A stretch of DNA of 57,985 nucleotides from a virus (IMGVR_UViG_3300010397_000011:1-57985); one strand, 5' to 3'; numbered from the stretch's first letter, positions 30,873 through 52,888 are shown. The notes: a model not told the origin generated them from the sequence alone. Made by a program: numbers and translations.

Positions 30873-32508
30873 ACGTTGCCTTACGCGGCAGCGCGGCCTT
30901 CGGTGCTGACACCGTGGCCGCGCTGTTGCTGAGGCGCTTCAACGCCTGACTGCACGCGTCGATCCAGTCGTCGTGCGATCCGTTCGGGAACGCCGACGCC
31001 TGGTCGAGGAAGTGGGGCACCCACGCTCGGCGCCCATCGAGGTGGACGTCGCCCGCCTCGATGCGGCCCGAGTACGCGCGCATCCGCACGGGCTTCGAGC
31101 CCTTCGGTGTTTCCTTCAGCAGTCCCGACATGCCGCGGCGCATCTGCTTCTCGACGGCGGCGCGTTCGTCGACTGCCACGCCGACACGCGCGGCCATCTC
31201 GTCGGAGCACGTCCAGCCGGGCTGTGGCCGGCGCAGTTCGGTGTAGACCTCGGGGCCGTAGCCCGCGTTCTCGATGACGTGCTTCTCGACCCACGGGTAG
31301 CGCACCTTCATCAGACACATCGCGACGCGGGTCTCGACCTGATTCCACTGCCCGCTGATCGCGTCGAGGAACCAGAACTGCGAGCCGACACGCGTCCACA
31401 GTTCGCCGACGCACCAGTCGCCGGCCTCCTTCTCTTTCAACTTCATGTCCCACGACGTGAGCGCGTCGTCGAACCGTTCGGGCACGACGTCGTCGACGCG
31501 CCACCACGCGCGCTTCAACTCGGTGCCCTCCTCGGGTGCGGGCTTCTGCTGCTCCATCGCTGACGCGAGGTACGAGCCCATCTCCCGATGCGCGTCGAGG
31601 ACGATGTGTTTCGGGAACCGCTCCTCCTCGATGACGTCACCGAGCGCGCGGCCGAGCGGGTCGTTCGCCTCGGCCAGCGCGGGGATGCGCACGACGTCCC
31701 ACGCCATGCCCGTCTCGTCCTCGGACTGCTTGACGAGGCGGCCGGTGAGGTCGTCCTCGTGCCAGCGGGTGTGCACGACGATGATCCACGCGTCGGGGTC
31801 GTCGAGGCGACGGCGCAGCACCGAGCGGTACTGGTTCCACACGTGGTCACGGCCGTGCGCCGAGTGCGCGTCTTGCCAGCCCTTGAACGGGTCGTCGATG
31901 AGGAGCCCGCCGCCGTGCCCGCAGCCGAACCCGGTGATCGCGGAGTTGATGCCAGCGGCGAGGAGCCCGCCGCCCTGCTGCGTGACGAAGCGGTCCATCT
32001 TCTGCCGGTCCACTCGGAGCTGCGTGCGCAGTTCGTCGCGGTGCTCACGCAGACGGTCACGCACGAAGATCGCGTCCTCGTTCGCGAGGTCGTCGCCGTA
32101 CGACGCGATGATGATGCGGGCCTCGGGTCGACGGTCGAACACCCACACGAGACCCCAGCCGCCGAACAGCAGGCTCTTGCCGAAGCGGGCGGGCATGTTG
32201 ACGATCAGCCGCGCGCCTTTGCCCTCGACGGCCTCTCGCAGTTTCGCTGAGAGGTAGCGGACGTACGGCCAGAGTTTGTACTCGCCCTTCGTGAGGTGAT
32301 GGGCCATGAGCGCGGGGTCGGACCGCCAGCCGACCGAGTACGCGTCGGCCATGACACCCTCGACGGTCTGCGCATCCTGCCGAGCCAACTGCGCGGACCA
32401 GCCTTCGAGGATGTCGACGCGGTCCTTCAGCGCGAGTGCGAGTTGTGCGAGGTCGGCTGGCCCGTCGTCGAGCGCGGGCGGGACGATCAGCCGGGGTCGG
32501 CGCGCCAC
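30778..32508 (-). CDS. terL: Terminase large subunit
   Basis: Walker A MPARFGKS, Walker B LLIDDP, TRWHEDD, nuclease SWD...FPNGSHDDWID; start approximate. Confidence 0.93.
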   Translation of the reverse strand: MARRPRLIVPPALDDGPADLAQLALALKDRVDILEGWSAQLARQDAQTVEGVMADAYSVGWRSDPALMAHHLTKGEYKLWPYVRYLSAKLREAVEGKGARLIVNMPARFGKSLLFGGWGLVWVFDRRPEARIIIASYGDDLANEDAIFVRDRLREHRDELRTQLRVDRQKMDRFVTQQGGGLLAAGINSAITGFGCGHGGGLLIDDPFKGWQDAHSAHGRDHVWNQYRSVLRRRLDDPDAWIIVVHTRWHEDDLTGRLVKQSEDETGMAWDVVRIPALAEANDPLGRALGDVIEEERFPKHIVLDAHREMGSYLASAMEQQKPAPEEGTELKRAWWRVDDVVPERFDDALTSWDMKLKEKEAGDWCVGELWTRVGSQFWFLDAISGQWNQVETRVAMCLMKVRYPWVEKHVIENAGYGPEVYTELRRPQPGWTCSDEMAARVGVAVDERAAVEKQMRRGMSGLLKETPKGSKPVRMRAYSGRIEAGDVHLDGRRAWVPHFLDQASAFPNGSHDDWIDACSQALKRLSNSAATVSAPKAALPRKATSTAKGRALTSRRSLVQGARRPGSQGLRPRPR

Positions 32509-32888
32509 TGCCACACGGTCCGCCGCGTGATGAGGACTTCGTCGCCCGCGTCGAGGAGTTCGACGTCGAGCCGCCACTGGCCGGCGCCCGCGCCACGGGC
32601 GACGCGTCGCACGACGGACAGCGACCCGAGCGCGACGAGGTCTCCGACCTGCGGGCAGGGGCCGTCCCACTCCGTCGACCGCAGGGTCCGGCGCTCGGGC
32701 TGGGCCGGGTCTTCCCACTGGGCTGGCTGGGCAGGGGCCAGGGCGCCGCCTGGGGCTCCGTACGCTCCCGCCCCTCCAACCCCTACCGGGCCGGGGTTCG
32801 GGGGCCCTGGGGCCACCTGGGCGGCTCCCTGGGCGGCCTCGGGCTGAGGCTCCTCGGGTGGCCTGCGGAGCCAGCCGCCGCCCGTCAC
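32487..32888 (-). CDS. Pro/Gly-rich hypothetical protein
   Basis: Coupled ORF between terS and terL; 5' half lies in a phased-repeat island. Confidence 0.5.
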   Translation of the reverse strand: MTGGGWLRRPPEEPQPEAAQGAAQVAPGPPNPGPVGVGGAGAYGAPGGALAPAQPAQWEDPAQPERRTLRSTEWDGPCPQVGDLVALGSLSVVRRVARGAGAGQWRLDVELLDAGDEVLITRRTVWQWRADPG

Positions 32889-33097
32889 CGGAGCCCCCTG
32901 CGGAGCGAGCGGCGACTGGTCACCACAGTCGCGACCGACGGACGCGCGTGCGCGGGCTCGGGCTCCTCGCCCGGCTCGTCGAACGTCGCGTGCCAGTCAG
33001 CGATGATGTGCGAGGCGGCCTGCGCGTAGGACACCTCGTGGTCCGCGGCGAACTGCTTGACGATCACCTCGGCCTCGTCGTCGAGGCGGCACTGCAT
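32885..33097 (-). CDS. Small ribbon-helix-helix-like protein
   Basis: MQCRLDDEAEVIVKQFAADHEVSYAQAASHII. Confidence 0.45.
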   Translation of the reverse strand: MQCRLDDEAEVIVKQFAADHEVSYAQAASHIIADWHATFDEPGEEPEPAHARPSVATVVTSRRSLRRGLR

Positions 33098-33222
33098 CAC
33101 TGCTCGTCGTCCGTCCACGGCACGCGGGTCGGCTTGCCATGCGGGCCGTCGTGTCCCTCGTCGAGCCCGCATCGGTACGCGTGCTTCACCACCGGCAGCC
33201 GGATCACGTGCGCGCACCTCAT
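33097..33222 (-). CDS. 41-aa Zn-binding peptide (not in ORF track)
   Basis: MRCAH...RCGLDEGHDGPH; ATG overlaps the terS stop. Confidence 0.45.
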   Translation of the reverse strand: MRCAHVIRLPVVKHAYRCGLDEGHDGPHGKPTRVPWTDDEQ

Positions 33223-33872
33223 CGGTGGCCGTTGCCGTTCGTCTTCGCCTTCCGGTCCTGCGCGTCCTCCGCGTCAGCGATCCCTTGCATGTACGCGCGC
33301 AGCGAGTCGGCCAGGTCGCGTGCCCGCTCCTCGGCAGACACACCAGCCGAGTCGGACGTCTCCAACTCGTAGCGCCTGCGGTACTTCTCGGGGAAGCGCC
33401 GCTCGAGGAACCACGCAGCTGCCGTCCACTGCGGAGCCAGCGTCTCGGTCCGCTCGATCTCCTCGACGACGACCATGCGCGGCCGGTTCGGGTCCGACGT
33501 GTCGAGCCTGCGCTTGACCAACCGCTTCGTCACGACCGCGCCGCCCTCGCCAGCACGGGTCACGACGAACAGACGCGACGCCTCGACCTCGGCCTCGGCT
33601 GTTTCAAGTGCGTCAAGAAAATCTGCGTACCGCTGTTCGCGTTCGTCGAGGTCGTGGCCGTTGGCTTGCTTGGCGCGTGCGTTGCCGCCTGCTCGTCGCC
33701 AGTTCCAGAGTGTTTGGCGGGTGATGTCTGCGCCGGCGGTGGCGTCGTCGAAGTCGGCGCCGAGTCTGATGCGGTCGAGGATGTGGTCGGCGGCTGTGAC
33801 GGGTGTGCCGTCCTTGCGGGTGCGGATGACGCGGTCGAGGGTGGGGGGTACTCCGCGGCGGCCGTCGGGCAT
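33219..33872 (-). CDS. terS: Terminase small subunit
   Basis: HTH ITRQTLWNWRR, YADFLDALETAEA and WTAAAWFLERRFP motifs; upstream of terL. Confidence 0.78.
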   Translation of the reverse strand: MPDGRRGVPPTLDRVIRTRKDGTPVTAADHILDRIRLGADFDDATAGADITRQTLWNWRRAGGNARAKQANGHDLDEREQRYADFLDALETAEAEVEASRLFVVTRAGEGGAVVTKRLVKRRLDTSDPNRPRMVVVEEIERTETLAPQWTAAAWFLERRFPEKYRRRYELETSDSAGVSAEERARDLADSLRAYMQGIADAEDAQDRKAKTNGNGHR

Positions 33873-34121
33873 GGAGGGGGAGCGTAGTCAGGGGTGCGGG
33901 GTGGGGGTGATACGGGGTGGGGCCTGGGTGCTCTGTGGGGGCCGGTGGCGTCAGGGGTGGCCGGGGGTGGGTCGGGTGGAGTGGGGGCCCCTGGGCGGCT
34001 CCTGGGCCTGTCCTGGGACGCGAGGACGCCCGGCCCCTGGGGGCCCTCGGGGGTGAGGGGCCAGGGGCCGGGCGCGTGGGGCGCTGGCTGGGCTAGGTGA
34101 GAGTGAGCGTGGCGTCTCGGT

Positions 34122-34565
34122 TCAGTCGAGTGGGGTGCGCAGGTACTCGGACACTTTCGCGGGTGACAGGCCGGTCGCCTTGATGATGAGGCGGGGTGTC
34201 TTCCCTTCGGCGTGGAGTGTGTGGACTCGGGCGTGGTCGCGTCGTTGGGAGGCGAGGGTCATCGCGTACTCCGAGGGGCGCATCCCCGCGCCGGGCCTGC
34301 CTTGCGGGATGACGTCCATGTCGATGACGTCGGCGGGTCGGGGTTCGGGTTCGGTGACACCGGCGAGGAGTTGCGCGAGACGGTAGGCCGAGTCGCGGGC
34401 CTCCTCACGGGTGGTGTGCTGGTCGGGCAGGTGGTGCATCGCGCCGTCGACGGTATGCACTCGCACCTGCCAGCCTCCCGCGACCTGCACGGGAAGGAGG
34501 GCGGTGATGTGGCGCGCGGAGACGTAGCCGTTGCGCACCTCCACCCAGTCTTTGAGCGTGGTCAT
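34122..34565 (-). CDS. Hypothetical protein with C-terminal HTH
   Basis: LHAEGKTPRLIIKATGLSPAKVSEYL. Confidence 0.6.
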   Translation of the reverse strand: MTTLKDWVEVRNGYVSARHITALLPVQVAGGWQVRVHTVDGAMHHLPDQHTTREEARDSAYRLAQLLAGVTEPEPRPADVIDMDVIPQGRPGAGMRPSEYAMTLASQRRDHARVHTLHAEGKTPRLIIKATGLSPAKVSEYLRTPLD

Positions 34566-34786
34566 TGTCGTGTCCCTTCGAGTCGGGCCAGAGCCCTGAG
34601 GGCCTGGTCGTGTGTGTTGTCGGTTGCGAGGTGCAGGAGTGACGGCTCCCACACGACCCGGTGCTCGGGGTGCCAGCCGGGCACGGTGGCGATCACTCGC
34701 CACATCCCGTCGTGGTCGCCGCGCACGACGCAGAGCTCCGTCACGAGGTGAGCGGGGATGGGCTCGGTGGTGCGGTAGTCCATCAT
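34562..34786 (-). CDS. Hypothetical early protein
   Basis: ATGA-coupled at both ends. Confidence 0.5.
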   Translation of the reverse strand: MMDYRTTEPIPAHLVTELCVVRGDHDGMWRVIATVPGWHPEHRVVWEPSLLHLATDNTHDQALRALARLEGTRQ

Positions 34787-35040
34787 CGCTCGGCCTCCTC
34801 GTCGTAGCGGGCCTCGGCCGTGATGCCGTGGACCATCTGTCGGGCGAACGTCTGTGCCGTGAGGAGGTCGTCGATCGCGAGGCCGAGGTACGTGTCGACC
34901 GCGGCCCACGACGACGCGTTCATCGGCTGGGCGCGTCGGCGGTTGAGTGTCGTGGTCGCGCGGCGCAGGGAGGCCGAGGCTCCCTGCATCCGCTCGATCG
35001 TCTGGACGTGGGCTCGGTGGGTTGTGAGTTCGTCAGGCAT
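34783..35040 (-). CDS. Hypothetical early protein
   Basis: GAGAGAGACCATGCC start motif. Confidence 0.6.
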   Translation of the reverse strand: MPDELTTHRAHVQTIERMQGASASLRRATTTLNRRRAQPMNASSWAAVDTYLGLAIDDLLTAQTFARQMVHGITAEARYDEEAER

Positions 35041-35377
35041 GGTCTCTCTCTTCCTTCTCGGTGACGATGTCCATGAGGGCATCGAGGATGTCGTGGGGGT
35101 CGACGTCGTGGGGCCAGCCCTGCCGTTCGAGCGGGGTCGGTCCGTGCGTCGACAGTTCGGGGTCTTGCTCCCAGTCGTAGGGGGCTGGGGTCGGGGTGAC
35201 GATGCGGAGGTGGGATCGCGGGAAGGTGGTCGTCGCGTTCCGCTCCATCAACGCGAGCGGCGTGGGCCGGTGGGCCTCGCACGAGTACCACACCTTCGGT
35301 CCCGTGTTCGGCGCGTCGGCCTGCTCGATGTGGACTGCGGGCTCGTCGCAGCCGGGGTAGTCACAGAGGCGAGTCAT
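35033..35377 (-). CDS. Hypothetical protein (CDYPGC...C..H zinc finger)
   Basis: Zn-ligand pattern; translationally coupled. Confidence 0.55.
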   Translation of the reverse strand: MTRLCDYPGCDEPAVHIEQADAPNTGPKVWYSCEAHRPTPLALMERNATTTFPRSHLRIVTPTPAPYDWEQDPELSTHGPTPLERQGWPHDVDPHDILDALMDIVTEKEERDHA

Positions 35378-35526
35378 CGTCCGCCCTCCCACACGAGGGC
35401 GCAGTCAGCGCACGGGCACGTCACGTGGAACGGGTGGACCGGCGGCAGTAGTCGCGGCCGGACCGAGTTGTCGAAGCGGACTTCGACGCCGCGCTCGAGG
35501 GCGGAGAGAAGGTCGGTGAGTGTCAT
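35374..35526 (-). CDS. Small hypothetical protein (not in ORF track)
   Basis: RBS GAAAGGGA; H...CPCADC motif. Confidence 0.45.
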   Translation of the reverse strand: MTLTDLLSALERGVEVRFDNSVRPRLLPPVHPFHVTCPCADCALVWEGGR

Positions 35527-35540
35527 GGTCGTGGTCCCTT

Positions 35541-35849
35541 TCAGATCGGGTTCCCGGCTGAGCCGGTGAGGTCATGGACGAACACGAGGTCGCGGTCGCA
35601 GACCTCGTGGCACTCGGCAACGTGGACGGTCATGCCCGTGGTGTTGCGCACACGGTCGGCCCACTGCTCCGCGGCCCGCCTGCCCATGTGAGCGGCGGCC
35701 CTCGGGTTCGCGGTCCACGCGAAGTCACCGACGGACGGGTAGTGCTTGACGAGGTACCGCTCGGGCCACACGCGCCGTTGCAACGTGTAGGCGGGGTACT
35801 GGACGACTTCGTCGAGGACGACGATGTAGGGGTTCTTCGGCTTGGTCAC
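35541..35849 (-). CDS. Hypothetical early protein
   Basis: GTGA-coupled ORF. Confidence 0.55.
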   Translation of the reverse strand: MTKPKNPYIVVLDEVVQYPAYTLQRRVWPERYLVKHYPSVGDFAWTANPRAAAHMGRRAAEQWADRVRNTTGMTVHVAECHEVCDRDLVFVHDLTGSAGNPI

Positions 35850-36196
35850 GACTGCACCTCCTCGTCTGCGAGCAACGGGTTCGGCACCCACTCGCCGTCG
35901 ATCTTCACCTCGGGTTCCAGCACGACCGGCCTGGCCGCGTGCTGCTCGTCGAACTGCGCGGCGCGGGCGCCGTCACCCTTCGATGTCAGGCGCGTCTTGC
36001 GGGTGCGCACCGGCTTGACGTGCTCGACGGTCATCGTCGCGTCGACGACTTCGTACTCCCCCTCGTCGACGGTGATCGCGTCGAGGTTGTCGATGTCGAT
36101 CGCGTTCTCGATCTGTTCCGCGATCGCGTCGTTGCTCGCGAACTTGCCGGAGGTGAACTGCACCTCGATGTCGATGGTCACTGTGAACCTGGGCAT
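35846..36196 (-). CDS. Hypothetical early protein
   Basis: 116 aa acidic protein with RBS AGGAGA. Confidence 0.6.
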   Translation of the reverse strand: MPRFTVTIDIEVQFTSGKFASNDAIAEQIENAIDIDNLDAITVDEGEYEVVDATMTVEHVKPVRTRKTRLTSKGDGARAAQFDEQHAARPVVLEPEVKIDGEWVPNPLLADEEVQS

Positions 36197-36197
36197 C

Positions 36198-36365
36198 TCA
36201 TTCTCCTGTCTCTGTCGTGATCGTGTTCTCGGTGAGGATGCGGTCGCACGCGTCGAGGAAGACGTCGGCAGCTACGACCAGCGGGTGAGGTGGACGGGTG
36301 GACTTCACCAGCGGCTCGACCCGTTCGGTCGCGCGCGCGGTCGGGGTGATGGTCGGTGATGGCAT
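36198..36365 (-). CDS. 55-aa hypothetical protein (not in ORF track)
   Basis: GAGAGAGACCATGCC start motif directly after RNA-motif copy A. Confidence 0.55.
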   Translation of the reverse strand: MPSPTITPTARATERVEPLVKSTRPPHPLVVAADVFLDACDRILTENTITTETGE

Positions 36366-36382
36366 GGTCTCTCTCTCTTTCC

Positions 36383-36443
36383 AGAGCCTGAGGGCTCCGT
36401 GCGGGGCACCGATCCCGAGGAGGGACCGATGCCCCGAGGCGCA
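36383..36443 (-). ncRNA. Repeated intergenic two-hairpin RNA motif, copy A
   Basis: UGCGCCU-CGGGGCAUCG..CGGUGCCCCG-CAC-GGAGC-N6-GCUCU. Confidence 0.7.
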
Positions 36444-36494
36444 ACCTTCAGGGGCGCCCAGGGGTGCCGCTAGGGCGCCGCTGGGGGGGCCGAA

Positions 36495-37451
36495 CTACAG
36501 CCCACGGACAAGGGCCACTGCCTTCGCCTTCAGGGGCTCAGGGCGCAGCAGGGTCCGACCGAGGTAGGTGTCGGAGTTCCGGTAGCCACGGGCGTGGTCG
36601 AGGTACTCGACGGCCGCGTCCACGAGGCCGAGCCCCGTGCCGCGGTGCCCGTCCGTCGTCAGGCTGTCCATGTAGATGTGGCGGAAGATCGAGCGGGCCT
36701 CCTCGATGTTGTCGCGGACCCGATCCGAGAACGTGCCCTCAGGCGGGGCGGGGATGAAGTCGCTGACGAAGTGGTTGAACTTCACCTCGTCGATCTTCAT
36801 CCCGAACAACTCGGTGGCCAACTCCTGCCACGCCTTGAACTCGTCGCGCACACCGGCCATCGCCGCCTTCGCCTCGTCGATCCGACCGAGGACGTCGCCG
36901 GTGTGGCGGAACACGAACTGGCGGCCCGTGCGGTCGCCCTCCATGCTGGCGGCCTGGTAGGTGTTCCAGCAGACGACGCGCACTGAGGTCGGGAGGACCT
37001 TGCACGCGCCCTCGCCGTTGTGGGAGTTGAGGAACGCGATGAACGGGTAGGTCTCGGTGTCGTCACCGCAGATGACTTCGGGCTCGTCGAGGTAGGCGAC
37101 GGCCCACACCTGCGCTCCACCCTTGCATGAGCCGGCGGTCTCGAACTTCGCGCCGAGGCCGAGGATGACCTCGATCACTTCGCCCATCACTCGGTTGGGC
37201 ACGAGGCCGAACGTGTCGGACACGGGGCCGAGGGGTGCTTGCGTGTCGTCACGCACGACGACCTGATGGTCGGTGAGGGCGACGAAGTCGTCGCCGATCT
37301 TGTGGTACAGGGGCCGGAGTTCCGGCTCCCACGTCAGGCCAGCCTTGACCCTGGCGTCTTCCCAGTCGGTCGGGTAGTCGTCGAGCACGAGCCCTTCGCC
37401 GTGCCACATCGGCTGACGAACGCTGAATCCGGTGTCGAAGTATGCGGGCAT
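36495..37451 (-). CDS. DUF932 (phage/plasmid TIGR03299-like) protein
   Basis: MWHGEG, AGLTW, FETAGS..GG..VW, NSHNG, TSVRVVCWNT and FRHT motifs. Confidence 0.88.
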   Translation of the reverse strand: MPAYFDTGFSVRQPMWHGEGLVLDDYPTDWEDARVKAGLTWEPELRPLYHKIGDDFVALTDHQVVVRDDTQAPLGPVSDTFGLVPNRVMGEVIEVILGLGAKFETAGSCKGGAQVWAVAYLDEPEVICGDDTETYPFIAFLNSHNGEGACKVLPTSVRVVCWNTYQAASMEGDRTGRQFVFRHTGDVLGRIDEAKAAMAGVRDEFKAWQELATELFGMKIDEVKFNHFVSDFIPAPPEGTFSDRVRDNIEEARSIFRHIYMDSLTTDGHRGTGLGLVDAAVEYLDHARGYRNSDTYLGRTLLRPEPLKAKAVALVRGL

Positions 37452-37470
37452 GGTCTCTCTCCTTTTCGGT

Positions 37471-37527
37471 GGAGCCTGATTGCTCCGTGCGTGGCACCGA
37501 CCGATCAGGCCGGTGCCACGAGGCGCA
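37471..37527 (-). ncRNA. Repeated intergenic two-hairpin RNA motif, copy B
   Basis: UGCGCCU-CGUGGCACCG..CGGUGCCACG-CAC-GGAGC-N6-GCUCC. Confidence 0.7.
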
Positions 37528-37531
37528 ACAA

Positions 37532-38116
37532 TCACGCGGTCTTCTTCGCTGCTCCCTTCTTCGGAATCGGGGTGACCTCGCGCTTGCTGGCCGGGGTCTT
37601 CTTCGCCGCGGCCTTCGCCGGGGTCTTCTTCGCCGTCTGCTTCGCGGCGGGCTTGCGGGTGACCTTCTTGACCGGCTCGGCCTCGGTGGTCTCGGCGCTG
37701 GTCGCCTCGTCGGTGGAGGGCTCCTCAACCTTCTGACCCTTCACCGTCGCGATCCCGTGGGCCGCGTTGATCGCGTCCAGGTTCGGGGTGTCGGGCAGGG
37801 GCTCGCCGTTCGCCTTCGCGGTCTTCAGTGCGCGGGCCTCGGCCATCGCGAGGTTGAGCACCTCGACCGGCGCGACCTTCCGTGCCTTCTTGCCACCGCT
37901 GCTCTTGCGGCCCTCGCCGCGGGGTGCGGGCTCGGGCAGATCGATCGGGGTCCACTTCTTCCCGTCGCGGACGAACATCTCCCGCATCGGCTTCTGGACC
38001 TTCTTGCCGGTTGCCTCACGGCACTCGTAGCAGTGGGGGGTCCGACTGGCCGGAGGCTGGTCGGCCTCGACCTCACGGGAGTGTCCGCACGTCATGGTGA
38101 ATCGGTAGGTGGGCAT
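37532..38116 (-). CDS. Zn-ribbon protein with histone-H1-like Lys/Ala tail
   Basis: CGH...CYEC; KKTPAKAAAKKTPA tail. Confidence 0.65.
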   Translation of the reverse strand: MPTYRFTMTCGHSREVEADQPPASRTPHCYECREATGKKVQKPMREMFVRDGKKWTPIDLPEPAPRGEGRKSSGGKKARKVAPVEVLNLAMAEARALKTAKANGEPLPDTPNLDAINAAHGIATVKGQKVEEPSTDEATSAETTEAEPVKKVTRKPAAKQTAKKTPAKAAAKKTPASKREVTPIPKKGAAKKTA

Positions 38117-38152
38117 GGTCTCTCTCTTTCGTAAGCCGTCACTGTGACGGTC

Positions 38153-38208
38153 GGAGCCTGAGTGCTCCGTGCGTGGCGCGGACCCGAGGGCCCGTGCCAC
38201 GAGGCGCA
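38153..38208 (-). ncRNA. Repeated intergenic two-hairpin RNA motif, copy C
   Basis: UGCGCCU-CGUGGCACGG..CCGCGCCACG-CAC-GGAGC-N6-GCUCC. Confidence 0.7.
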
Positions 38209-38212
38209 CCAC

Positions 38213-38728
38213 TCAAGCGAGGGTGTCGGTGGAGGGGTCGTACGTCGTGGAGCCCACGACTTCGAACATCGGGGCTCGGACGATGGGCTCGAATCGGTTC
38301 GGGTACAGCCGCTTCACTTCGGCCTCAGCCTCGGCCCGTGTCGCGTGGGTCGCGATGTGCAACTTCCTCCACACAACCCTGGTCGAGGAGAGCCGACCCG
38401 ACGCGTACCACGCGGCGGTCTCGTCGTCGTCGTCTCGGCCGAGGATCTTCACTGCTCGCACCGTGGTCTCGGTGGCGGCGCGGACTTGCATCGGGTTGCG
38501 CCGCACCTCCTCTTCCCGATGCTTGCTCGCCGTCATCAGGCCGACGAGGAGGACGTGGACTTCACGCTTCGTCAGGACCAGGGGCTCACGGGTTGAGTAG
38601 TCCGCGATCCACACGACCCACCGCTGGGCTCCCGACCTCGTGGTGCGCGGGAACCACTGGTCGATCTGCCCCGCGTCCACCGCTAGGTCCAGTCCGTTGC
38701 TTACAGATTCGTTCGTCAGATTCGGCAT
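38213..38728 (-). CDS. Hypothetical early protein
   Basis: AGGAGAGAGACCATGCC start motif. Confidence 0.65.
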   Translation of the reverse strand: MPNLTNESVSNGLDLAVDAGQIDQWFPRTTRSGAQRWVVWIADYSTREPLVLTKREVHVLLVGLMTASKHREEEVRRNPMQVRAATETTVRAVKILGRDDDDETAAWYASGRLSSTRVVWRKLHIATHATRAEAEAEVKRLYPNRFEPIVRAPMFEVVGSTTYDPSTDTLA

Positions 38729-38738
38729 GGTCTCTCTC

Positions 38739-39215
38739 CTATCGGTTGCGCCGCTGTGCTGCGCGGCGGGCTTTCGCGTCTGCTGCCACTCTGTCCTTGC
38801 GGTTCTGAATCATCGCGGCGGCCTCCTCGGCCACTGCCCTGAACGCGTCATCGACCGAGACCTCCTCGTCTCCGATGAACGCACGGATCGAGGTGATCTC
38901 CCCGCTGTCGATGTCCCGCTCAAGGGAGTCGAGGGCGTCAGCCTTCGCGGCCCGCTCGACGAGGGACCGAAGGATGCGGTGCTCCCTCGCCAGGTTCTGC
39001 CGCTCTGCCGCGAACGCCGCGGCCTCAGCCGCGTGCCGGGCAATGAATGCGGGGTCGGTGGTGATGTTGAACCCGCCCTCGACTTCGGTGAGGGTGCGCT
39101 CGGCAATGCTGATGACCTCTCGGAGCTCCCGCTTCAGGGAGTCCTCGCTCGCCGCTTGCTCGGTCGCCATTGCGTCGAGCCGTTCGGCAATCAGTCGGTC
39201 GGTGTTGGTCGTCAT
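38739..39215 (-). CDS. Helical hypothetical early protein
   Basis: 158 aa with RBS GAAAGGA. Confidence 0.65.
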   Translation of the reverse strand: MTTNTDRLIAERLDAMATEQAASEDSLKRELREVISIAERTLTEVEGGFNITTDPAFIARHAAEAAAFAAERQNLAREHRILRSLVERAAKADALDSLERDIDSGEITSIRAFIGDEEVSVDDAFRAVAEEAAAMIQNRKDRVAADAKARRAAQRRNR

Positions 39216-39228
39216 GGTCGTTGTCCTT

Positions 39229-39306
39229 TCAGAACAGGTTGCCCACCACGATGTGGTGGACGAGGTGGACGGTCAGGGCCAGGCGGTGCAGGGCGCACTG
39301 AAACAT
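39229..39306 (-). CDS. Possible 25-aa leader peptide
   Basis: GGAGAG RBS, MFQCALHRLALTVHLVHHIVVGNLF; stop overlaps the RBS of the next gene. Confidence 0.35.
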   Translation of the reverse strand: MFQCALHRLALTVHLVHHIVVGNLF

Positions 39307-39309
39307 TGG

Positions 39310-39763
39310 TGCTCTCCGATCGGGTGGTCGTGGTCGTGGTCGTGGTCTCTGTCGTGGAGTGGAAGCACTCCGTGCGAGGCACCGACTGGGCGCAGCACAC
39401 GGTCACTGGGAATCGGGGCTCTCTTGTTTCAGCCCATCTGCCGGTCGCCCGGTTTCTTCTCCGTCCCTACGTGTGCTGCACCCAGCCGATGCCCCGAGGC
39501 GCAGGGCTTCACTGGTGTTGCAGCGGGAGTGTCGTGACGTTCGGGGTCACACACACTCTCGACTTGCTCGACTCCGCCCCTCACGGGACTTCGGGTAACA
39601 CGTGCACCCCGTCGCTCGGCTGCACTTCCCCGGACCTCCTGCACTTCGGCTCAGCCCTTGCATCACGCTCGGCCTTCGCAGGTCCCAGTCCGCTCTCAGT
39701 AGGTGGACTTCCCTTTGGGGGCTCCATCCCTACCTACCTCTTTAGTTTTCAAGGTTCTTTACC
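39310..39763 (-). ncRNA. Large structured leader/ncRNA containing extended motif copy D (39356-39503)
   Basis: No credible ORF; many nested stems, GNRA loops (CCC-GUGA-GGG, CCGG-GCGA-CCGG) and G-U pairs on the minus strand. Confidence 0.68.
39741..39757 (-). promoter_or_regulatory. boxA-like antitermination element
   Basis: GAACCTTGAAAACTAAA resembles the Gram-positive rrn boxA (GTTCTTTGAAAACT); just downstream of the predicted start site. Confidence 0.55.
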
Positions 39764-39769
39764 CCCCTA

Positions 39770-39798
39770 AAGGTAGGGTCGGGGCTGGGGCGATGCCA
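39770..39798 (-). promoter_or_regulatory. Putative sigmaA-type early promoter
   Basis: TGGCAT-17 nt-TACCTT. Confidence 0.5.
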
Positions 39799-39995
39799 CC
39801 ACAGACGCACATCCCGAGGACTTTGTTTGGCAGCAGCTGCCGAAAGTTCGCGGCGCTCTGAGCAGGGGAAACGACCCAAAACGCCCAGCCCAGGGAGACC
39901 AACTTGACAGTTATCGGCGCCAGCGGAGAGCGGCTACAACTTGGCAGCCGCTGCCGAGAGCGACGAGCCCGGCAGATAGCGGGTGCTGTCTTTAA

Positions 39996-40478
39996 TCAGA
40001 CCGGAGTGAGGACCGCGGCGAGGAGCCCGCGCAGCGCGTCCATGTCGACGGCCCACGCCGCGCACGCGAGCGCGGACGTCGGCCAGTCGTCGTGCTTCCC
40101 GTAACCGATGATCGGCACGTCACGCTCGACCATCACGCTGGCCTCTTGCATCGTGCCGTCCGAGCCGGGGAGCACCACGCCGACCTCGGCCACTGACCCG
40201 ACGAGCGCGTTGCGAAACGGGATCGTCAGGCCCGTGCGGAGTGCGATCGACAGTCCGCTCGACGGCGGCTGATACGGAGACGCGGGGATCAGTCCGATCG
40301 CGAGCCCACCGACCGACGTCGCTCCTCGAGCAGCCGCGTCCATCACGCCGCCGAGCCCGCCGCACACGAGGGCCAGGTCGTCGCGCTCACCGACCACTCG
40401 GCCGACGTCGTACGCGTCGAGCTCTATCTCAGGGGGGCAGTTCTTCCCCTTGCCGATCACGCACACGACGCGCCTCAT
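39996..40478 (-). CDS. LOG/SLOG-family (TIGR00725-like) nucleotide phosphoribohydrolase
   Basis: CVIG, LVCGGLGGVMDAAARGA...GG..IGLIP, RNA and PGSDGTMQE motifs. Confidence 0.85.
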   Translation of the reverse strand: MRRVVCVIGKGKNCPPEIELDAYDVGRVVGERDDLALVCGGLGGVMDAAARGATSVGGLAIGLIPASPYQPPSSGLSIALRTGLTIPFRNALVGSVAEVGVVLPGSDGTMQEASVMVERDVPIIGYGKHDDWPTSALACAAWAVDMDALRGLLAAVLTPV

Positions 40479-40744
40479 GCGAGACACCCTGCGTGGCTGA
40501 GGAGCGCGTAGCAGAACGCGAACGTGAGTACCTCTTTGCGGATGCGAGGATCGTCGAGCGGGACTCCCTCCGCGCTCATGGCGGTGATCTTGTCAGAGCA
40601 CTTCGTCTGGATGATGGCGAGCACGGCCGCCTCGACGCCAGCGTCAGCAATCGCGGACCAGGCTTGCACCGGGCCGTGGATGTGCAGCGTGCATCCCTGC
40701 ACGCTCTGCCTCAGCCGATCGGCAAGGGCCTCGGCGTCAGGCAC
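40475..40744 (-). CDS. Small hypothetical protein in the modification operon
   Basis: Overlaps the folE stop and the LOG start. Confidence 0.55.
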   Translation of the reverse strand: MPDAEALADRLRQSVQGCTLHIHGPVQAWSAIADAGVEAAVLAIIQTKCSDKITAMSAEGVPLDDPRIRKEVLTFAFCYALLSHAGCLA

Positions 40745-41372
40745 CGAACACGTGAGGCTTCGAGGTGGCGAGGGACTGGAACTCCCGCCGCCACGGGTCA
40801 TCGCGCAGGATGCCCCGATACCCGGTGACGACGACGACCTCCTGGCTCGGCGCGTTGGACTTGCAGATCAGACACATGTGGATCGACGCGAGGGAGAGCG
40901 CGACGCCCTTCGGTTCGAGCACCGCTTCGAGCGCGTCGAGGGTGTCGACGAGCAGACGCTCGTTCAACTGCGGCTGGCGTGCGAGGTAGTTCAGTCCCTT
41001 CTTCACCTTCGAGTACCCCGTGATCTTCTGGTCGGGCACGTACGCGAAGTGGGCCACGCCGAGAGCGGGCATCAGGTGGTGCTCGCACATCGACACGTAG
41101 TGGCAGTCCGTCACGGTGATGAGGACGTCGTCCTTCGCTGGGTTCGGGAACGTCTTCCACGGGATCTCGATGTCGCACCACGCCGCGTTGATGATGTCGC
41201 CGTACATCTCCGCGATGCGCCGTGGAGTGTTCGCCATCACCTCGGCCTTGTCGGACTGGCCGAGCCCTTGAAGCAGCAGGGTCACGCCACGCTCAAGCGT
41301 GTCGAGGTCGACCGGCTTCGGCGGGAGCGGCGCGCCGACGGGGGCGTGGTCGTTGTTCGTGACGGTGGTCAT
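40737..41372 (-). CDS. folE: GTP cyclohydrolase I (divergent)
   Basis: TPRR, SMCEHHLMP and HMC Zn ligands; SK and ERL present. Confidence 0.92.
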   Translation of the reverse strand: MTTVTNNDHAPVGAPLPPKPVDLDTLERGVTLLLQGLGQSDKAEVMANTPRRIAEMYGDIINAAWCDIEIPWKTFPNPAKDDVLITVTDCHYVSMCEHHLMPALGVAHFAYVPDQKITGYSKVKKGLNYLARQPQLNERLLVDTLDALEAVLEPKGVALSLASIHMCLICKSNAPSQEVVVVTGYRGILRDDPWRREFQSLATSKPHVFGA

Positions 41373-42143
41373 TCAGGTTCCTTTCACCATTGCGTCGAGG
41401 GTGTCGGTCCAGAGTTGACGTCGAGCCATGACGGCCGCGACCGCGGCGCGCCGGGCTGACGTCCAGTCCTCCTCGGTTTCGCACACGGCCTCGACCAGCC
41501 CGCGGGCCAGCGGCCCGTGGCTCTCACCGTCGAGTTCGATGTGCCTGTCGAGGTAGTGGCGCAGGGTCGCGCCACCGTTGCTGAGCCCAGCGAGGAGGGG
41601 CTCGAACATGGCGGGGATCAGTTGCTCGCGTCCGAGCGTGAACGCCGCGGCGATGGCGGGCAGGTTGCCCGTGCCGATGATCCCGAACGTGGTCGTGAGG
41701 AACCGCTCGGCGCCCGGCGGTGCGCCGAACTTCCGTGCGATGCGGGGCACCTCGGGGAGATGCCACTGCTGGCCTGGCGCGTGGAGGTGGCGAAGGGTCG
41801 CGTCGATGGCGGTGAGGTTCGCACCGGCCTCGACCATCGCCAGCCGGTACATCGACACGTGGTCGATGAACCCCTCGCCGTAGGTGTCGCACTCCTCGCC
41901 GGTCTTGATCTCGTTCACGAAGCGGGCCGCGGCCGGCGACCGTGACGGGAGCCACGGGACGGACGTGCACGTCGTGCGCAGCTGCAACGCAGTGAGCAGA
42001 GACATGAAGTCCCACACGGCCCACACGTGGTGCTCCATGAACAGGCGCAGGCGGGGCAGGGAGTCGAGCGCGTAGTAGAGCGGGTGCCCGACCACCTCGG
42101 CGCGTGTCGGTGCGACCGCTTCGGCCAGGTCGTCGAACGTCAC
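41373..42143 (-). CDS. DUF3050 heme-oxygenase-like diiron protein
   Basis: HPLY, FMEHHVWAVWDFMSLL, NEIKTGEECD, AAAFTLGRE and YLDRHIELDGESHG motifs. Confidence 0.88.
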   Translation of the reverse strand: MTFDDLAEAVAPTRAEVVGHPLYYALDSLPRLRLFMEHHVWAVWDFMSLLTALQLRTTCTSVPWLPSRSPAAARFVNEIKTGEECDTYGEGFIDHVSMYRLAMVEAGANLTAIDATLRHLHAPGQQWHLPEVPRIARKFGAPPGAERFLTTTFGIIGTGNLPAIAAAFTLGREQLIPAMFEPLLAGLSNGGATLRHYLDRHIELDGESHGPLARGLVEAVCETEEDWTSARRAAVAAVMARRQLWTDTLDAMVKGT

Positions 42144-43030
42144 GCCGCTGCCCTCCGTTCGGCCAGGACCTGCACCGCGTTCTGTGGGAGGTCGAACCCG
42201 CCGCCGCTCACCGCGTACATCCGCAGGCCGGGTTCGTCGTCGGGCCTGTCGGCGCGCACGACGGGGCCGTGCCGTTCACGTGCCCACGCCTCGACCTCGC
42301 TGTAGGTCGCGAGGCCCAGCGCGTCACGCACGGGCAACGGTGGCCCGCCGCGTCGGCCGCCGTACAACTCGCGTGGCTCGAACCCGAGGCGGCGCAGGAG
42401 ACGGCCGTGCTTCGCCATGCTCACGTTGTCACCGATGCGGACCTGCTCGCTCCGTCCCGTCGTGGAGTCGAACAGCGGGTAGTAGCCCCAGCGTCGACCG
42501 GCCAGCCACGACGAGGAGTCCACGCTGTAGAGCGGGAGCCCGCCGAGCACCGCGTCACCCGTCGCGCCGAGCCCGTGCCACACGATCTCGCTGCCCTTCA
42601 CCCGCATCATCGAGTCGACCATCCACCGCATACACACCGACGGCGGGACACCCGTGCCAGCCATCCCACCGAGACAGCCGTACGGGTACTCGGCCGCGAT
42701 CTTGCGCAGCACCTTCGGGTCCTCGTCGCGCATGTGGTAGACGGGCAGCACCGCGCAGCCCAGCCGTTCGAGCGTGCGCTGGTTCGCCATCGTCCCTTTC
42801 GAGTTGCCGATGACGTCGAGGTTGCACGCCGCGCTGAACAGGTGCTCCCACTTGTGGAGCCAGGCCGCGTACTCGTCGCACGTGATGACCGCGCCCTTCG
42901 TCATCGCTGAGTAGGCGCCCGAGTCCGCCCACATGTCGGGAGGCTCCCCGTCGATCGAGCAGCGGCGCGCGAACTCGTCGAGGTCGTGGTCGCGGTAGTA
43001 CCAGTACGAGAGCAGCAGCCGAACCCTCAC
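42140..43030 (-). CDS. dpdA: DpdA-like DNA guanine transglycosylase (TGT fold)
   Basis: LLSYWY, DSGAYS, LDVIG, PVYH, LGG, HGLG and SVDSSSW motifs. Confidence 0.82.
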   Translation of the reverse strand: MRVRLLLSYWYYRDHDLDEFARRCSIDGEPPDMWADSGAYSAMTKGAVITCDEYAAWLHKWEHLFSAACNLDVIGNSKGTMANQRTLERLGCAVLPVYHMRDEDPKVLRKIAAEYPYGCLGGMAGTGVPPSVCMRWMVDSMMRVKGSEIVWHGLGATGDAVLGGLPLYSVDSSSWLAGRRWGYYPLFDSTTGRSEQVRIGDNVSMAKHGRLLRRLGFEPRELYGGRRGGPPLPVRDALGLATYSEVEAWARERHGPVVRADRPDDEPGLRMYAVSGGGFDLPQNAVQVLAERRAAA

Positions 43031-51152: not shown

Positions 51153-51179
51153 GGTCTCTCCTATCGGTTGAGGTCGGTA

Positions 51180-51587
51180 CTACAGGGGGGTAACGGTAGG
51201 GCACACCGCGGGTGCAGTGTGCGTTCGCTGAAGTCGCTCGGGCAGGTGCAGCACCTGCCGTTCGGAGATAGGCGGGAGCATCACGTGCACACCGATCTTC
51301 CAGCCCTCGACGTCCACAAGGTTGAACTGGTCGAGCCGCTTCAGTGTGCGTTGCACGACGGCCTGCTTGCCCGTCCCGCCGTGCAAGCCCACCATCCGGC
51401 CGACCTCCTCGATGTCGACGGTGAGCCCATCGGGCTCGGCTGCCAGCCACTGCACGAACCGTCGGTACAGCCACACACACGACGGCCCGACGGTCGGCAG
51501 CCAGTAGGTCTCCACGTACGGGGAGAACGGCGCGATCACGTCGATCGCTCGGACGGGTAGCGCCTCGACCCAGCGGTCCTCACTCAT
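51180..51587 (-). CDS. RepA/DnaB-like winged-helix protein
   Basis: YVETYWLPTVGPS..WLYR...RTLKRL.QF. Confidence 0.5.
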   Translation of the reverse strand: MSEDRWVEALPVRAIDVIAPFSPYVETYWLPTVGPSCVWLYRRFVQWLAAEPDGLTVDIEEVGRMVGLHGGTGKQAVVQRTLKRLDQFNLVDVEGWKIGVHVMLPPISERQVLHLPERLQRTHTAPAVCPTVTPL

Positions 51588-52673: not shown

Positions 52674-52888
52674 GGTCTCTCCGTTCTTGCACCGCACCGC
52701 GCGGTGCTGCCGTAACCCTACCGCAGGGGTGTGACATACCCCGCTAAAGCAGACGCGAGGCGGCCCCGCTACCACGCACCCGAGAGACCATGCCTAGTCA
52801 ACCGAAGGTGCGTAGGAACGGGGCCACCCGTGAGGTGCCGCCCCGGCCAAGGGGAAGGCACGCCCACGGTACCGCACTGCGCGTGCTG

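What the first reader, a model, noticed from the sequence alone, without database searches (positions are those of the whole stretch)
36383..39503. Four copies of a covarying two-hairpin RNA motif between early genes
Copies lie at 36383-36443, 37471-37527, 38153-38208 and 39356-39503. Minus-strand consensus: UGCGCCU-[CGKGGCAYSG..variable..CSGYGCCNCG]-CAC-[GGAGY-N6-RCUCY]. Compensatory changes are visible (U-A vs G-C in stem 1; GGAGC/GCUCC vs GGAGU/ACUCC in stem 2), most non-Watson-Crick pairs are G-U on the transcribed strand, and the apical part of stem 1 varies from about 10 to about 100 nt while the flanks are fixed. Three copies sit between a stop codon and the next RBS. I do not recognise it as a described family. 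Candidate roles: put-like or nut-like antiterminator reloaded along the operon, processing/stabilising site, protein-binding site, or recombination joint for swapping early-gene cassettes.
Basis: seen in the sequence. Interest (0 to 1): 0.82.

Follow-up and report, generated by a model that had tools for sequence, protein, structure and literature searches.

The report
Switchable RNA hairpins between phage genes
An uncultivated soil phage places the same folded RNA signal between several neighbouring genes; it most likely folds as one long hairpin that begins at the upstream stop codon and can re-fold into two short hairpins, much like the cutting sites that split phage T7's long messages, but its function is untested.

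Summary
The four copies are real and lie at the stated places, all on the coding (minus) strand. Nine more copies occur in two closely related IMG/VR phage contigs and one soil metagenome contig. None was found in 14 more distant relatives, in bacterial genomes or in Rfam.

Stem 1 is confirmed, with wholesale compensatory replacement between copies. The two-hairpin picture is incomplete. When the 5' flank is included, 12 of 13 copies fold best as one long irregular hairpin. This helix has 8 of 12 pairs changed on both sides; hairpin 2 has 1 of 5. The invariant letters form a small asymmetric internal loop between the lower helix and stem 1. If the 5' strand is blocked, all 13 copies re-fold into the two-hairpin form.

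Best reading (confidence about 0.4): a bistable mRNA junction element that works like a T7-type RNase III processing site and leaves protective hairpins on both products. Rivals are a termination-sensing switch, antitermination, and a hairpin-plus-promoter cassette. No expression data exist. It is a new variant of a known kind.

The parts
36383..36452 (-). Element A. UGA at 36448-36450 is not a gene's stop. Stem 1 spans 36402-36436; alternative hairpin 2 spans 36383-36398. Followed by the RBS/start block 36363-36373 of a 55-aa gene.
   Evidence: R2 75.3 bits.
37471..37536 (-). Element B. UGA at 37532-37534 is the stop of the 194-aa Zn-ribbon/Lys-rich protein gene. Stem 1 spans 37490-37520; alternative hairpin 2 spans 37471-37486. 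Followed by the start of the DUF932 gene at 37451.
   Evidence: R2 83.8 bits. Lower helix is a perfect 8-bp UGAUUGUU/AGCAAUCA.
38153..38217 (-). Element C. UGA at 38213-38215 is the stop of the 171-aa gene. Stem 1 spans 38172-38201; alternative hairpin 2 spans 38153-38168. A third small hairpin (38131-38148) precedes the RBS of the 194-aa gene (start 38116).
   Evidence: R2 80.9 bits.
39356..39513 (-). Element D, in the long non-coding leader. The lower helix uses different letters (GUGAAGC with GCUUC-C-AC). Stem 1 is extended to about 27 bp by an insert.
   Evidence: The covariance models find it only in part because of the insert.
39387..39484 (-). 98-nt structured insert in the apex of D's stem 1, with 16-nt terminal inverted repeats. 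Absent from variants in other soil metagenomes and from both related contigs.
   Evidence: joint 39386 to 39485 in X2 and X4; 39389 to 39485 in X5..
36363..36373 (-). Start-associated block GAGAGACC-AUG, one of 8 exact copies on the minus strand. The others are at 37449-37459, 38114-38124, 38726-38736, 35038-35048, 51150-51160, 52671-52681 and 8594-8604. Three of them follow elements A, B and C.
   Evidence: 9 matches against 1.24 expected; 0 of 100 shuffles reach 9.
39216..39995 (-). 780-nt gap without a credible long ORF that holds element D. Presumed promoter and leader of the block (inferred, not shown).
   Evidence: Partly conserved in the two related contigs.

Best explanation
WHAT IT IS. 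A cis-acting element of the sense mRNA that fills the spacer between cistrons.

GROUND STATE (shown by prediction and covariation). One long irregular hairpin of about 25-27 bp. Its parts, from the base up:
- A lower helix of 10 + 2 bp. Its 5' strand starts at or just before a UGA fixed 7 nt upstream of UGCGC, which is usually the upstream gene's stop codon.
- An invariant G.G mismatch and a 3-nt/2-nt internal loop (CCU/CA). These hold most of the conserved letters.
- The freely variable, GC-rich stem 1.

PROPOSED MECHANISM (inferred, not shown).
1. A double-strand-specific endoribonuclease, most likely the host's RNase III, recognises this shape and nicks the 3' strand near the internal loop, as at the phage T7 early sites.
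2. The upstream message then ends in stem 1, which guards its 3' end.
3. The freed 3' strand re-folds into hairpin 2 (GGAGC...GCUCC) at the new 5' end of the downstream message, just ahead of the conserved GAGAGACC-AUG start block.
4. The result is separately stable single-gene messages from one transcript.
For: - REPEATED AND CONSERVED. 13 copies occur in 4 sequence records. The surrounding DNA of these records is only 70-88% identical over long aligned stretches, yet the flanks are invariant.
- LONG HAIRPIN IS THE PREDICTED FOLD. It is the minimum-energy fold in 12 of 13 copies (the 13th, A, adopts it in a longer context).
- LOWER HELIX COVARIES. On a MAFFT alignment not fitted to any structure: 12 pairs, 88.9% of cells paired, 8 pairs changed on both sides. 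For the whole structure, 90.5% of cells pair against 76.2% in shuffles (0 of 500 reach it) and 31-43% when slid.
- COMPENSATED TRIPLETS. The three variable letters after the UGA are matched by UUG/CAA, GUG/CAC and GCG/CGC. The D-type copies use a wholly different but complementary helix.
- FLANK DOUBLE CHANGE EXPLAINED. The one double change seen in the otherwise invariant flanks (G to A and C to U in L009 copy D) falls on one predicted pair, 18-59 (GC in 11 copies, AU in 1).
- SENSE-STRAND BIAS. G.U 28 against A.C 9. All copies are in gene orientation.
- RE-FOLDING. All 13 copies re-fold to stem 1 + hairpin 2 when the 5' flank is blocked, at a cost of 3.3-11.7 kcal/mol.
- SIZE AND SHAPE. They match the T7 R1.1 signal, described as a 60-nt structured RNA with an asymmetric 4/5-nt internal loop lying between genes 1.0 and 1.1 (PMC6121014, passages).
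- HOST-TYPE CONTEXT. In Actinobacteria, stem-loops at transcript 3' ends are reported to be long and often lack U-rich tails (PMC13613805, passages).
- NOT A TERMINATOR OR SIGMA-70 PROMOTER. No U-run terminator lies at any copy, and no sigma-70-like promoter was found in 32-41 kb.
Against: - No RNA data of any kind. Transcription, co-transcription and cleavage are all inferred.
- The phage encodes no RNase III domain, and the host is unknown.
- A processing site does not explain why UGA/UCA and GGAG/CUCC are invariant rather than covarying.
- The element is dispensable at a given junction: copy A is absent from L009.
- The 13 copies are paralogues and close orthologues, so independent events are few. 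The shuffle control does not correct for relatedness.
- Copy A's lower helix is weak.
Confidence: 0.4

Rival explanations
1. Termination-sensing switch (translational coupling). The upstream stop codon sits at a fixed register inside the lower helix. A terminating ribosome therefore covers the 5' strand up to the base of stem 1, frees the 3' strand and lets hairpin 2 form. This state change promotes translation of the next cistron (or blocks its cleavage or decay).
For: - TGA lies exactly 7 nt before TGCGC in 10 of 10 non-D copies, with variable letters on both sides of it. It is the real stop in 7 of them and is kept in the 3 where it is not.
- Hairpin 2 is built from an SD-like GGAG and an anti-SD-like CUCC. 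Both are invariant, and the element is followed by a conserved SD/start block.
- Blocking the 5' flank flips all 13 copies.
Against: - Predicted accessibility of the SD does not change consistently between the two states in the 10 copies tested (changes from -0.11 to +0.24).
- Copies A and A' lie 51 nt from the real stop, and D-type copies lie in a leader with no upstream gene.
- TGA is the usual stop codon in high-GC DNA (general knowledge).
- Stop-to-start distances of 83-99 nt are long for reinitiation.
Confidence: 0.15
2. Processive antitermination signal (put- or nut-like). The two-hairpin state, or a protein bound to it, modifies RNA polymerase so that it reads through downstream stops into the long virion operon. 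The signal is reloaded at each junction.
For: - The alternative state is a double hairpin of about 60 nt, like the ~65-nt double-hairpin put RNA (PMC8632103, passages).
- Copy D lies in the leader of the block that runs into the terminase and virion genes.
- Conserved single-stranded letters next to a hairpin recall boxA/boxB (recalled, not from a call).
Against: - Five copies within 3 kb are not expected for a signal that acts persistently once loaded.
- The double-hairpin state is not the predicted ground state, and hairpin 2 has little covariation.
- No canonical U-tailed terminators are predicted on the minus strand in this block that would need to be read through.
- No antiterminator-like protein was found among 9 neighbouring proteins.
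- No similarity to any Rfam family.
Confidence: 0.1
3. Hairpin-plus-promoter junction cassette (PeSL-like), which could also serve as a recombination joint. The hairpin ends or attenuates upstream transcription. The invariant 20-nt box just after it is a promoter read by a modified polymerase. Repeated cassettes favour gain, loss and exchange of single genes.
For: - In more distant relatives (L010, L011, Terij) the same junctions around the DUF932 gene hold a strong hairpin followed by a sigma-70-like promoter.
- PeSLs run from the upstream stop codon through a stem-loop to the SD and start codon (PMC2839356, section 14).
- Presence or absence: copy A is missing in L009, and L008 has an extra copy E' with two extra ORFs.
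- Neighbouring copies share stems within a genome (B' and C' in L008; B and C here), as if homogenised.
Against: - No sigma-70-like promoter in 32-41 kb.
- The box has no TANNNT, and only 18-36 nt separate it from the AUG (read).
- No sigma region-2 domain in the phage. The T7-type polymerase search also found nothing, but its control could not ring.
- The box letters are explained as one strand of a covarying helix.
- The other differences between relatives are deletions inside genes, not exchanges at the elements.
Confidence: 0.12
4. DNA-level or selfish element: a small palindromic repeat (REP/MITE-like), or a site for a DNA-binding, replication or recombination protein, with no role in RNA.
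For: - The long near-palindrome resembles bacterial intergenic palindromic repeats.
- There is precise presence/absence of whole units.
- D carries a nested 98-nt insert that has its own terminal inverted repeats.
Against: - The arms vary freely within one genome, so no sequence-specific dimer site exists.
- G.U pairs (28) outnumber A.C (9), including a U.G kept in 8 of 12 copies.
- No copies in 48 candidate loci from bacterial genomes, and only 1 true copy among 62 metagenome loci.
- Invariant letters persist in records whose surrounding DNA is 70-88% identical over long aligned stretches.
- No transposase or integrase was noticed, but the genome was not fully annotated.
Confidence: 0.08

Closest known systems
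RNase III processing signals of the phage T7 early region (R0.3, R0.5, R1, R1.1, R1.3). R1.1 as described in PMC6121014 (passages); the other site names and single-strand cleavage are recalled.
   Same: - Repeated element in the spacers between cistrons of one strand.
- Irregular hairpin of about two helical turns and 60-70 nt, with a small asymmetric internal loop that carries the conserved letters.
- Would leave a 3' hairpin on the upstream message.
   Different: - No sequence similarity.
- Host is presumably a high-GC actinobacterium.
- The upstream stop codon is built into the lower helix at a fixed register.
- The upper stem is freely replaceable.
- An explicit alternative hairpin (GGAG/CUCC) is available to the 3' product.
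- Cleavage is untested.
PeSL (promoter-early stem-loop) cassettes of T4-type phages (Arbiol et al. 2010, PMC2839356; abstract and section 14 read).
   Same: - Repeated stop-codon-to-start-codon junction modules with a GC-rich stem-loop between small genes of unknown function.
- Some gain or loss of units between close relatives.
   Different: PeSLs are defined by a strong sigma-70 promoter, and none is present here. Here the conserved letters form a covarying RNA helix. Mini-circle formation is not testable.
SAS/ESAS of cluster K mycobacteriophages (Pope et al. 2011, PMC3203893, passages; PMC12699233, passages).
   Same: - An actinophage with a conserved start-associated block at several genes: 8 here, the most repeated 12-mer of the genome.
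- A subset of those genes carries an upstream inverted repeat with a variable spacer.
- The unit can be present or absent at a given gene.
- Function is still unknown for SAS/ESAS too.
   Different: - Different sequences (GAGAGACC against the 13-bp cluster K consensus).
- ESAS arms are 17-bp sequence-conserved half-sites, for which the authors saw little support for an RNA hairpin. Here the arms are replaced wholesale with compensation.
- Supplementary figures of both papers were not available to me.
HK022 put antiterminator RNA (PMC8632103, passages).
   Same: About 60-65 nt, a double hairpin in one of the two states, and one copy (D) in an operon leader.
   Different: Multiple copies at gene junctions. 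The double hairpin is not the predicted ground state. No sequence or Rfam relation. Activity is untested.
Intergenic stem-loops for selective RNA processing and stabilisation in bacterial operons (for example the cip-cel operon, PMC10311766; only the search listing and start of the abstract seen).
   Same: The general logic: stem-loops between cistrons set processing and segment stability.
   Different: Those are individual, non-repeated stem-loops. Here a single conserved bistable module is reused.

Membership tests
T7-type RNase III processing signal | Lies between cistrons of a polycistronic transcript | tested here: inconclusive
   Position between stop and start is shown for A, B and C. 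Co-transcription is inferred only: all genes are on one strand, and no promoter or U-tailed terminator was found on the minus strand of the block.
T7-type RNase III processing signal | Irregular hairpin of about two helical turns with an asymmetric internal loop | tested here: met
   Lower helix of 12 bp plus stem 1 of 9-15 bp (about 27 bp in D), with a G.G mismatch and a 3/2-nt loop. It is the minimum-energy fold in 12 of 13 copies, and 15 of 25 pairs change on both sides.
T7-type RNase III processing signal | Cut by RNase III in vivo or in vitro | not testable with these tools
   No RNA run holds the sequence. The phage has no RNase III domain. The host is unknown.
PeSL cassette | Strong sigma-70-like promoter within the repeat | tested here: not met
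   0 promoter-like sites in 32000-41000. No TANNNT in the conserved box (read).
PeSL cassette | Stem-loop between the stop codon and the SD/start; indels between relatives at the repeats | tested here: inconclusive
   The stem-loop is met. Two of the differences among the three genomes involve whole units (A absent in L009; E' plus 2 ORFs extra in L008). The others are deletions inside genes.
SAS/ESAS (cluster K mycobacteriophages) | 13-bp SAS consensus (at most 2 mismatches) just upstream of start codons | tested here: not met
   The start block here reads GAGAGACC-AUG (8 exact copies). It is a different sequence from the consensus quoted in PMC3203893.
SAS/ESAS (cluster K mycobacteriophages) | ESAS: 17-bp sequence-conserved imperfect inverted repeats without compensatory change | tested here: not met
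   At least 6 unrelated stem-1 sequences with full compensation.
HK022 put RNA | About 65-nt double hairpin downstream of an early promoter, one per operon, acting in cis on RNA polymerase | tested here: inconclusive
   A double hairpin is possible but is not the ground state. There are 4-5 copies at junctions. Activity is not testable.
Intrinsic (U-tailed) terminator | GC-rich hairpin followed by a U-run | tested here: not met
   The scan reports no site at any copy. The letters after stem 1 read CACGGAG (CAUGGAG in one copy) in all 13 copies.
Any Rfam 15 family (including small ribozymes and known antiterminator RNAs) | Covariance-model match at or near the gathering score | tested here: not met
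   0 matches at gathering score over the window. The best in 36000-40100 are E 0.66 and 0.77, at 22 and 18 bits against cut-offs of 90 and 43.

The most novel reading that the evidence does not exclude
The element is a ribosome-operated RNA switch. The upstream stop codon is built into the lower helix at a fixed register, so every terminating ribosome flips the junction from the long hairpin to the two-hairpin state. This would make cutting, decay, read-through or translation of the next cistron depend on whether the previous cistron has just been translated. Earlier notes of this scan describe the same layout in unrelated uncultivated phages: a long hairpin that starts at the stop codon and a small alternative hairpin next to the RBS. 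If those notes hold, it could be a general and so far undescribed class of phage junction control.
Probability: 0.15. Interest if true: 0.75.

Novelty: new variant of a known kind. Interest (0 to 1): 0.5.

Why it matters
Little has been worked out about how actinobacteriophages shape their long one-strand transcripts. The function of the best-known repeats of this kind (SAS/ESAS) still awaits experimental verification 14 years after their description (PMC12699233).

This element gives a compact, testable case. It is about 70 nt long and has two mutually exclusive folds. The ground-state fold is backed by compensatory changes; the alternative hairpin has one such pair. It also has a conserved bubble and a stop codon at a fixed place.

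If it is a processing site, it would extend the T7 'cut the message into stable single-gene pieces' strategy to high-GC phages. It could also serve as an insulating junction part for synthetic operons in actinobacteria. If the stop codon matters, it would link translation termination to RNA fate.

Its reach is narrow at present: four sequence records, all uncultivated.

Tried and rejected
RFAM. Nothing at gathering score over the whole window. Only two chance-level hits at E up to 5 in 36000-40100.

CULTURED PHAGES. No near match. Only short stretches at 65-76% identity in 7 Microbacterium phage records and one unclassified phage record. The nearest DUF932 proteins are 34-38% identical. The Terij region has other repeats that look like sigma-70 promoters and no copy of this element.

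COLLECTION SCANS.
- Viral contigs, strict pattern: 3 loci from 2 contigs.
- Viral contigs, looser pattern: 29 loci, of which only the loci of those same two contigs (L005, L006, L007) are true. The other 26 lack a hairpin and read as coding sequence.
- Metagenome scan: 62 loci. Genome scan: 48 loci.
- I ranked all their matches by the folding energy of the spacer and read the best 40 rows. Only L072 has the hairpin and RBS context, and no bacterial genome does.

COVARIANCE MODELS.
- R1 (two hairpins) and R2 (long hairpin) find the 12 short copies strongly. They find window copy D only in part (E 0.0028 and 0.25).
- R1 found nothing at E up to 0.01 in the whole records of three more distant relatives.
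- R2, searched over loci of 14 other records, gave nothing better than E 0.12 (L154).
- A weak second hit in L072 (E 0.005) has a strong hairpin but lacks the flanks. I left it out.

EXPRESSION. No RNA holder listed.

LAID CONTIGS. Contigs of four DNA runs gave the D-insert polymorphism but little else. Logan contigs break at the repeats.

SD MASKING. SD masking by the free CUCC in the long-hairpin state is not supported. Predicted SD accessibility differs by -0.11 to +0.24 between the two states, with no consistent sign (10 copies).

A CLOSING HELIX FROM THE FLANKS ALONE. RNAalifold proposed UGCGC pairing with GCAC. It has no covariation, and the L009 copy D changes break it. The long-range helix explains those changes better.

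IDEAS CONSIDERED BY EYE AND DROPPED (no call).
- Kink-turn: no G.A pairs next to the bulge.
- tRNA-like or T-arm mimic: no consistent CCA-like end.
- SECIS or read-through signal: the frame closes 9 codons after the UGA in B.
- CRISPR-repeat-like: the stems are not conserved.
- N4-type DNA hairpin promoter: no giant polymerase gene.

NEIGHBOURING PROTEINS. Pfam and PHROGs gave only DUF932 (phrog_1221) and SLOG. Nothing suggests an RNA-binding protein, a nuclease or an antiterminator.

THE 582-AA ORF WITHOUT PFAM HITS. It looks like a minor tail protein, not a polymerase.

POLYMERASE AND SIGMA SEARCHES. No sigma region-2 domain. The T7-type RNA polymerase search was also negative, but its control could not ring.

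LITERATURE. Searches for a described equivalent found none for Microbacterium-like or other actinophages beyond SAS/ESAS. Subscription journals are not covered. The supplementary files of Pope 2011 and Arbiol 2010 were closed, so details of the ESAS and PeSL alignments may be missing.

Full report
WHAT THE WINDOW IS. The window is a complete IMG/VR virus record of 57,985 bp whose two ends repeat 123 bp. It is 68% G+C, and essentially all high-GC3 ORFs lie on the minus strand.
- A helicase, a DnaC-like loader, an AAA_24 ATPase, a Gam-like protein, a ParB-like protein and a 7-deazaguanine-type set (a transglycosylase-like protein, DUF3050, FolE) lie at about 52.7-40.7 kb, followed by a SLOG-domain protein at 39996-40487.
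- The small and large terminase genes lie at 33.9-30.8 kb.
- The finding therefore sits between the replication module and the packaging module, just after a 780-nt gap without a credible ORF (39216-39995). Calling these genes 'early' is not justified by anything I saw.
- The nearest cultured phages are Microbacterium phages of the genus Mementomorivirus (Terij's genus), and only distantly: DUF932 protein 34-38% identical. An actinobacterial host is an inference.

Both conserved flanks occur exactly, on the minus strand, at the four stated places and nowhere else in the window. The mismatch-tolerant totals of those searches are not above chance, so the evidence is the four exact, co-located matches and repeat family D12.

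COPIES ELSEWHERE. Two IMG/VR contigs whose DNA is 70-88% identical to the window over long aligned stretches carry the same element at the same junctions: five copies in one and three in the other. A 1.4-kb soil metagenome contig carries one more. That makes 13 copies in 4 records. None turned up in the 48 candidate loci from bacterial genomes, in 14 more distant relatives that carry the same DUF932 gene or in Rfam.

STEM 1 IS A GENUINE COVARYING HAIRPIN. At least six unrelated stem sequences occupy the same place between invariant flanks. Each copy folds with 15-20 Watson-Crick pairs, 44 in D. On a MAFFT alignment, 83.5% of cells pair against 74.7% in shuffles (0 of 500 reach it) and 33-46% when the partner is slid. 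On the model-fitted alignment, which leans towards the structure, the figure is 92.1% against 81.2%. Copy D's long apex is a 98-nt insert that contigs from other soil runs lack. Both related contigs have the short form.

THE TWO-HAIRPIN PICTURE IS INCOMPLETE. I folded each junction from a few bases before the element to beyond the AUG in order to look at RBS accessibility. The predicted structure was not hairpin 2. It was one long hairpin.
- I then aligned 12 copies with 12 more 5' bases using MAFFT, without reference to any structure, and counted both models.
- The lower helix (12 pairs) is 88.9% paired, and 8 of its pairs change on both sides. Hairpin 2 (5 pairs) is 86.7% paired, and 1 pair changes on both sides.
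- The three variable letters after the UGA are matched by their partners as UUG/CAA, GUG/CAC and GCG/CGC. The D-type copies use an entirely different but complementary helix.
- The single double change seen in the otherwise invariant flanks (G to A and C to U in the L009 D copy) falls on one predicted pair, 18-59.
- The long hairpin is the minimum-energy fold in 12 of 13 copies on the trimmed segment. The exception, A, adopts it in a longer context.
- With the 5' flank blocked, all 13 copies re-fold into stem 1 + hairpin 2, at a cost of 3.3-11.7 kcal/mol. The two forms are therefore alternatives, and hairpin 2 is the fallback.

ANATOMY OF THE GROUND STATE. From the base up: a lower helix of 10 bp, an invariant G.G mismatch, 2 invariant pairs, a 3-nt/2-nt internal loop (CCU/CA), then stem 1 of 9-15 bp (about 27 bp in D).
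- G.U pairs (28 cells) outnumber A.C mismatches (9). They include a U.G kept in 8 of 12 copies. This favours folding of the sense strand, that is, of the mRNA.
- A TGA lies exactly 7 nt before TGCGC in all 10 non-D copies. In 7 it is the stop of the upstream gene; in 3 (A, A', C') it is not.
- Downstream, three of the four window copies are followed by the block GAGAGACC-AUG. This block occurs 8 times exactly on the minus strand, 7 of them followed by CC, and it contains the most repeated 12-mer of the genome.

WHAT IT MOST LIKELY DOES. The size (about 66-70 nt), the two-turn irregular helix with a small asymmetric conserved bubble, the position between cistrons and the reuse at successive junctions all match the T7 early RNase III signals. 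R1.1 is described as a 60-nt structured RNA with a 4/5-nt asymmetric internal loop between genes 1.0 and 1.1 (PMC6121014).
- A cut on the 3' strand near the bubble would leave stem 1 on the upstream message. It would also free GGAGC...GCUCC to form a hairpin at the very 5' end of the downstream message.
- Stem-loops without U-tails are reported to be the usual companions of transcript 3' ends in Actinobacteria (PMC13613805).
- Cleavage, the enzyme and even transcription are inferred. No RNA run holds this sequence, and the phage has no RNase III domain of its own.
- I put this reading at about 0.4.

RIVALS.
(a) A termination-sensing switch. The fixed, invariant UGA inside the lower helix and the SD-like/anti-SD-like make-up of hairpin 2 invite it. 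However, predicted SD accessibility does not change consistently between the states, and copies A, A' and D are not next to a real stop.
(b) Put- or nut-like antitermination. The double-hairpin state resembles put in size (PMC8632103), and D sits in a leader. However, five copies in 3 kb, the weak support for hairpin 2 and the absence of predicted U-tailed terminators on that strand argue against it.
(c) A PeSL-like hairpin-plus-promoter cassette. More distant relatives have a hairpin plus a sigma-70-like promoter at the same junctions, and whole units are gained or lost. However, no promoter is detectable here, no sigma domain was found, and the 'box' is accounted for as one strand of a covarying helix.
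(d) A DNA-level or selfish palindromic repeat. The strand-biased wobble pairs and the conserved bubble argue against it.

COMPARISON WITH KNOWN SYSTEMS. It works most like the T7 RNase III sites. Membership cannot be claimed without cleavage data. It is not a PeSL (no promoter), not SAS/ESAS (different sequences; ESAS arms are sequence-conserved without compensation, PMC3203893), not an intrinsic terminator and not any Rfam family.

EARLIER NOTES OF THIS SCAN. They describe look-alike layouts in unrelated uncultivated phages: a long hairpin starting at the stop codon, with a small alternative hairpin by the RBS. I did not check those genomes. A sequence look-up found no copy of this element in other windows.

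VERDICT. This is a new, narrowly distributed variant of a known kind of phage junction signal, with a well-supported bistable structure and an untested function.

Noticed in passing
window 39216-39995 (minus strand); L009 4010-4540: A 780-nt gap without a credible ORF. It is purine-rich and predicted to be highly structured, and parts of it align with both related contigs at 72-77% identity. It probably holds the promoter and leader of the block that runs into the terminase genes.
   Followed up: partly
window 39229-39306 (minus strand); L009 4625-4702: A conserved 25-codon ORF just after element D. It has synonymous and conservative changes between the two genomes. L008 has two other small ORFs plus an extra element copy in its place.
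   Followed up: partly
window 39387-39484: A 98-nt insert in the apex of element D. It has 16-nt terminal inverted repeats and its own predicted multi-branch fold. It is polymorphic among soil metagenomes. It could be a tiny mobile hairpin element.
   Followed up: partly
window 8594-8604, 35038-35048, 36363-36373, 37449-37459, 38114-38124, 38726-38736, 51150-51160, 52671-52681 (minus strand): The start-associated block GAGAGACC-AUG occurs in 8 exact copies, 7 of them followed by CC (proline as the second codon). It contains the most repeated 12-mer of the genome.
   Followed up: yes
window 39759-39772 (+), 51180-51193 (-), 8642-8655 (-): A TTACCCCCCT-type box lies upstream of two of the genes with the start-associated block and, inverted, in the big gap. 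The count is not above chance by shuffles (11 of 100 reach it).
   Followed up: partly
L010 5840-6010 and 6970-7110; L011 4940-5070 and 7065-7205; L149 (Terij) 3870-3985 and 7070-7325: More distant relatives carry a strong hairpin followed by a sigma-70-like promoter at junctions around the DUF932 gene. Terij repeats a promoter-like block of about 100 nt upstream of two genes.
   Followed up: no
L012 5925-6000: Upstream of its DUF932 gene, this 45%-identical relative has TGCGCC-hairpin-CACGCACG followed directly by a GTCAC..GTGAC-type hairpin like the third hairpin of window copy C. It looks as if the 16 nt of hairpin 2 were missing. The models do not score it.
   Followed up: partly
window 39996-43030: A set of DNA-modification-type genes: a queuine tRNA-ribosyltransferase-like protein, DUF3050, GTP cyclohydrolase I and a SLOG (LDcluster4) protein.
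   Followed up: no
window 11700-14150: A long gene with 13 or more copies of a repeat spaced at multiples of 54 nt, presumably a fibre or tail protein (family D1).
   Followed up: no
window 37532-38116 (minus strand): A 194-aa protein with an N-terminal Zn-ribbon-like CxxH..CxxC region (Pfam Zn_ribbon_8 only at E 0.39) and a Lys/Ala/Pro-rich histone-like tail. It is flanked on both sides by elements C and B.
   Followed up: no
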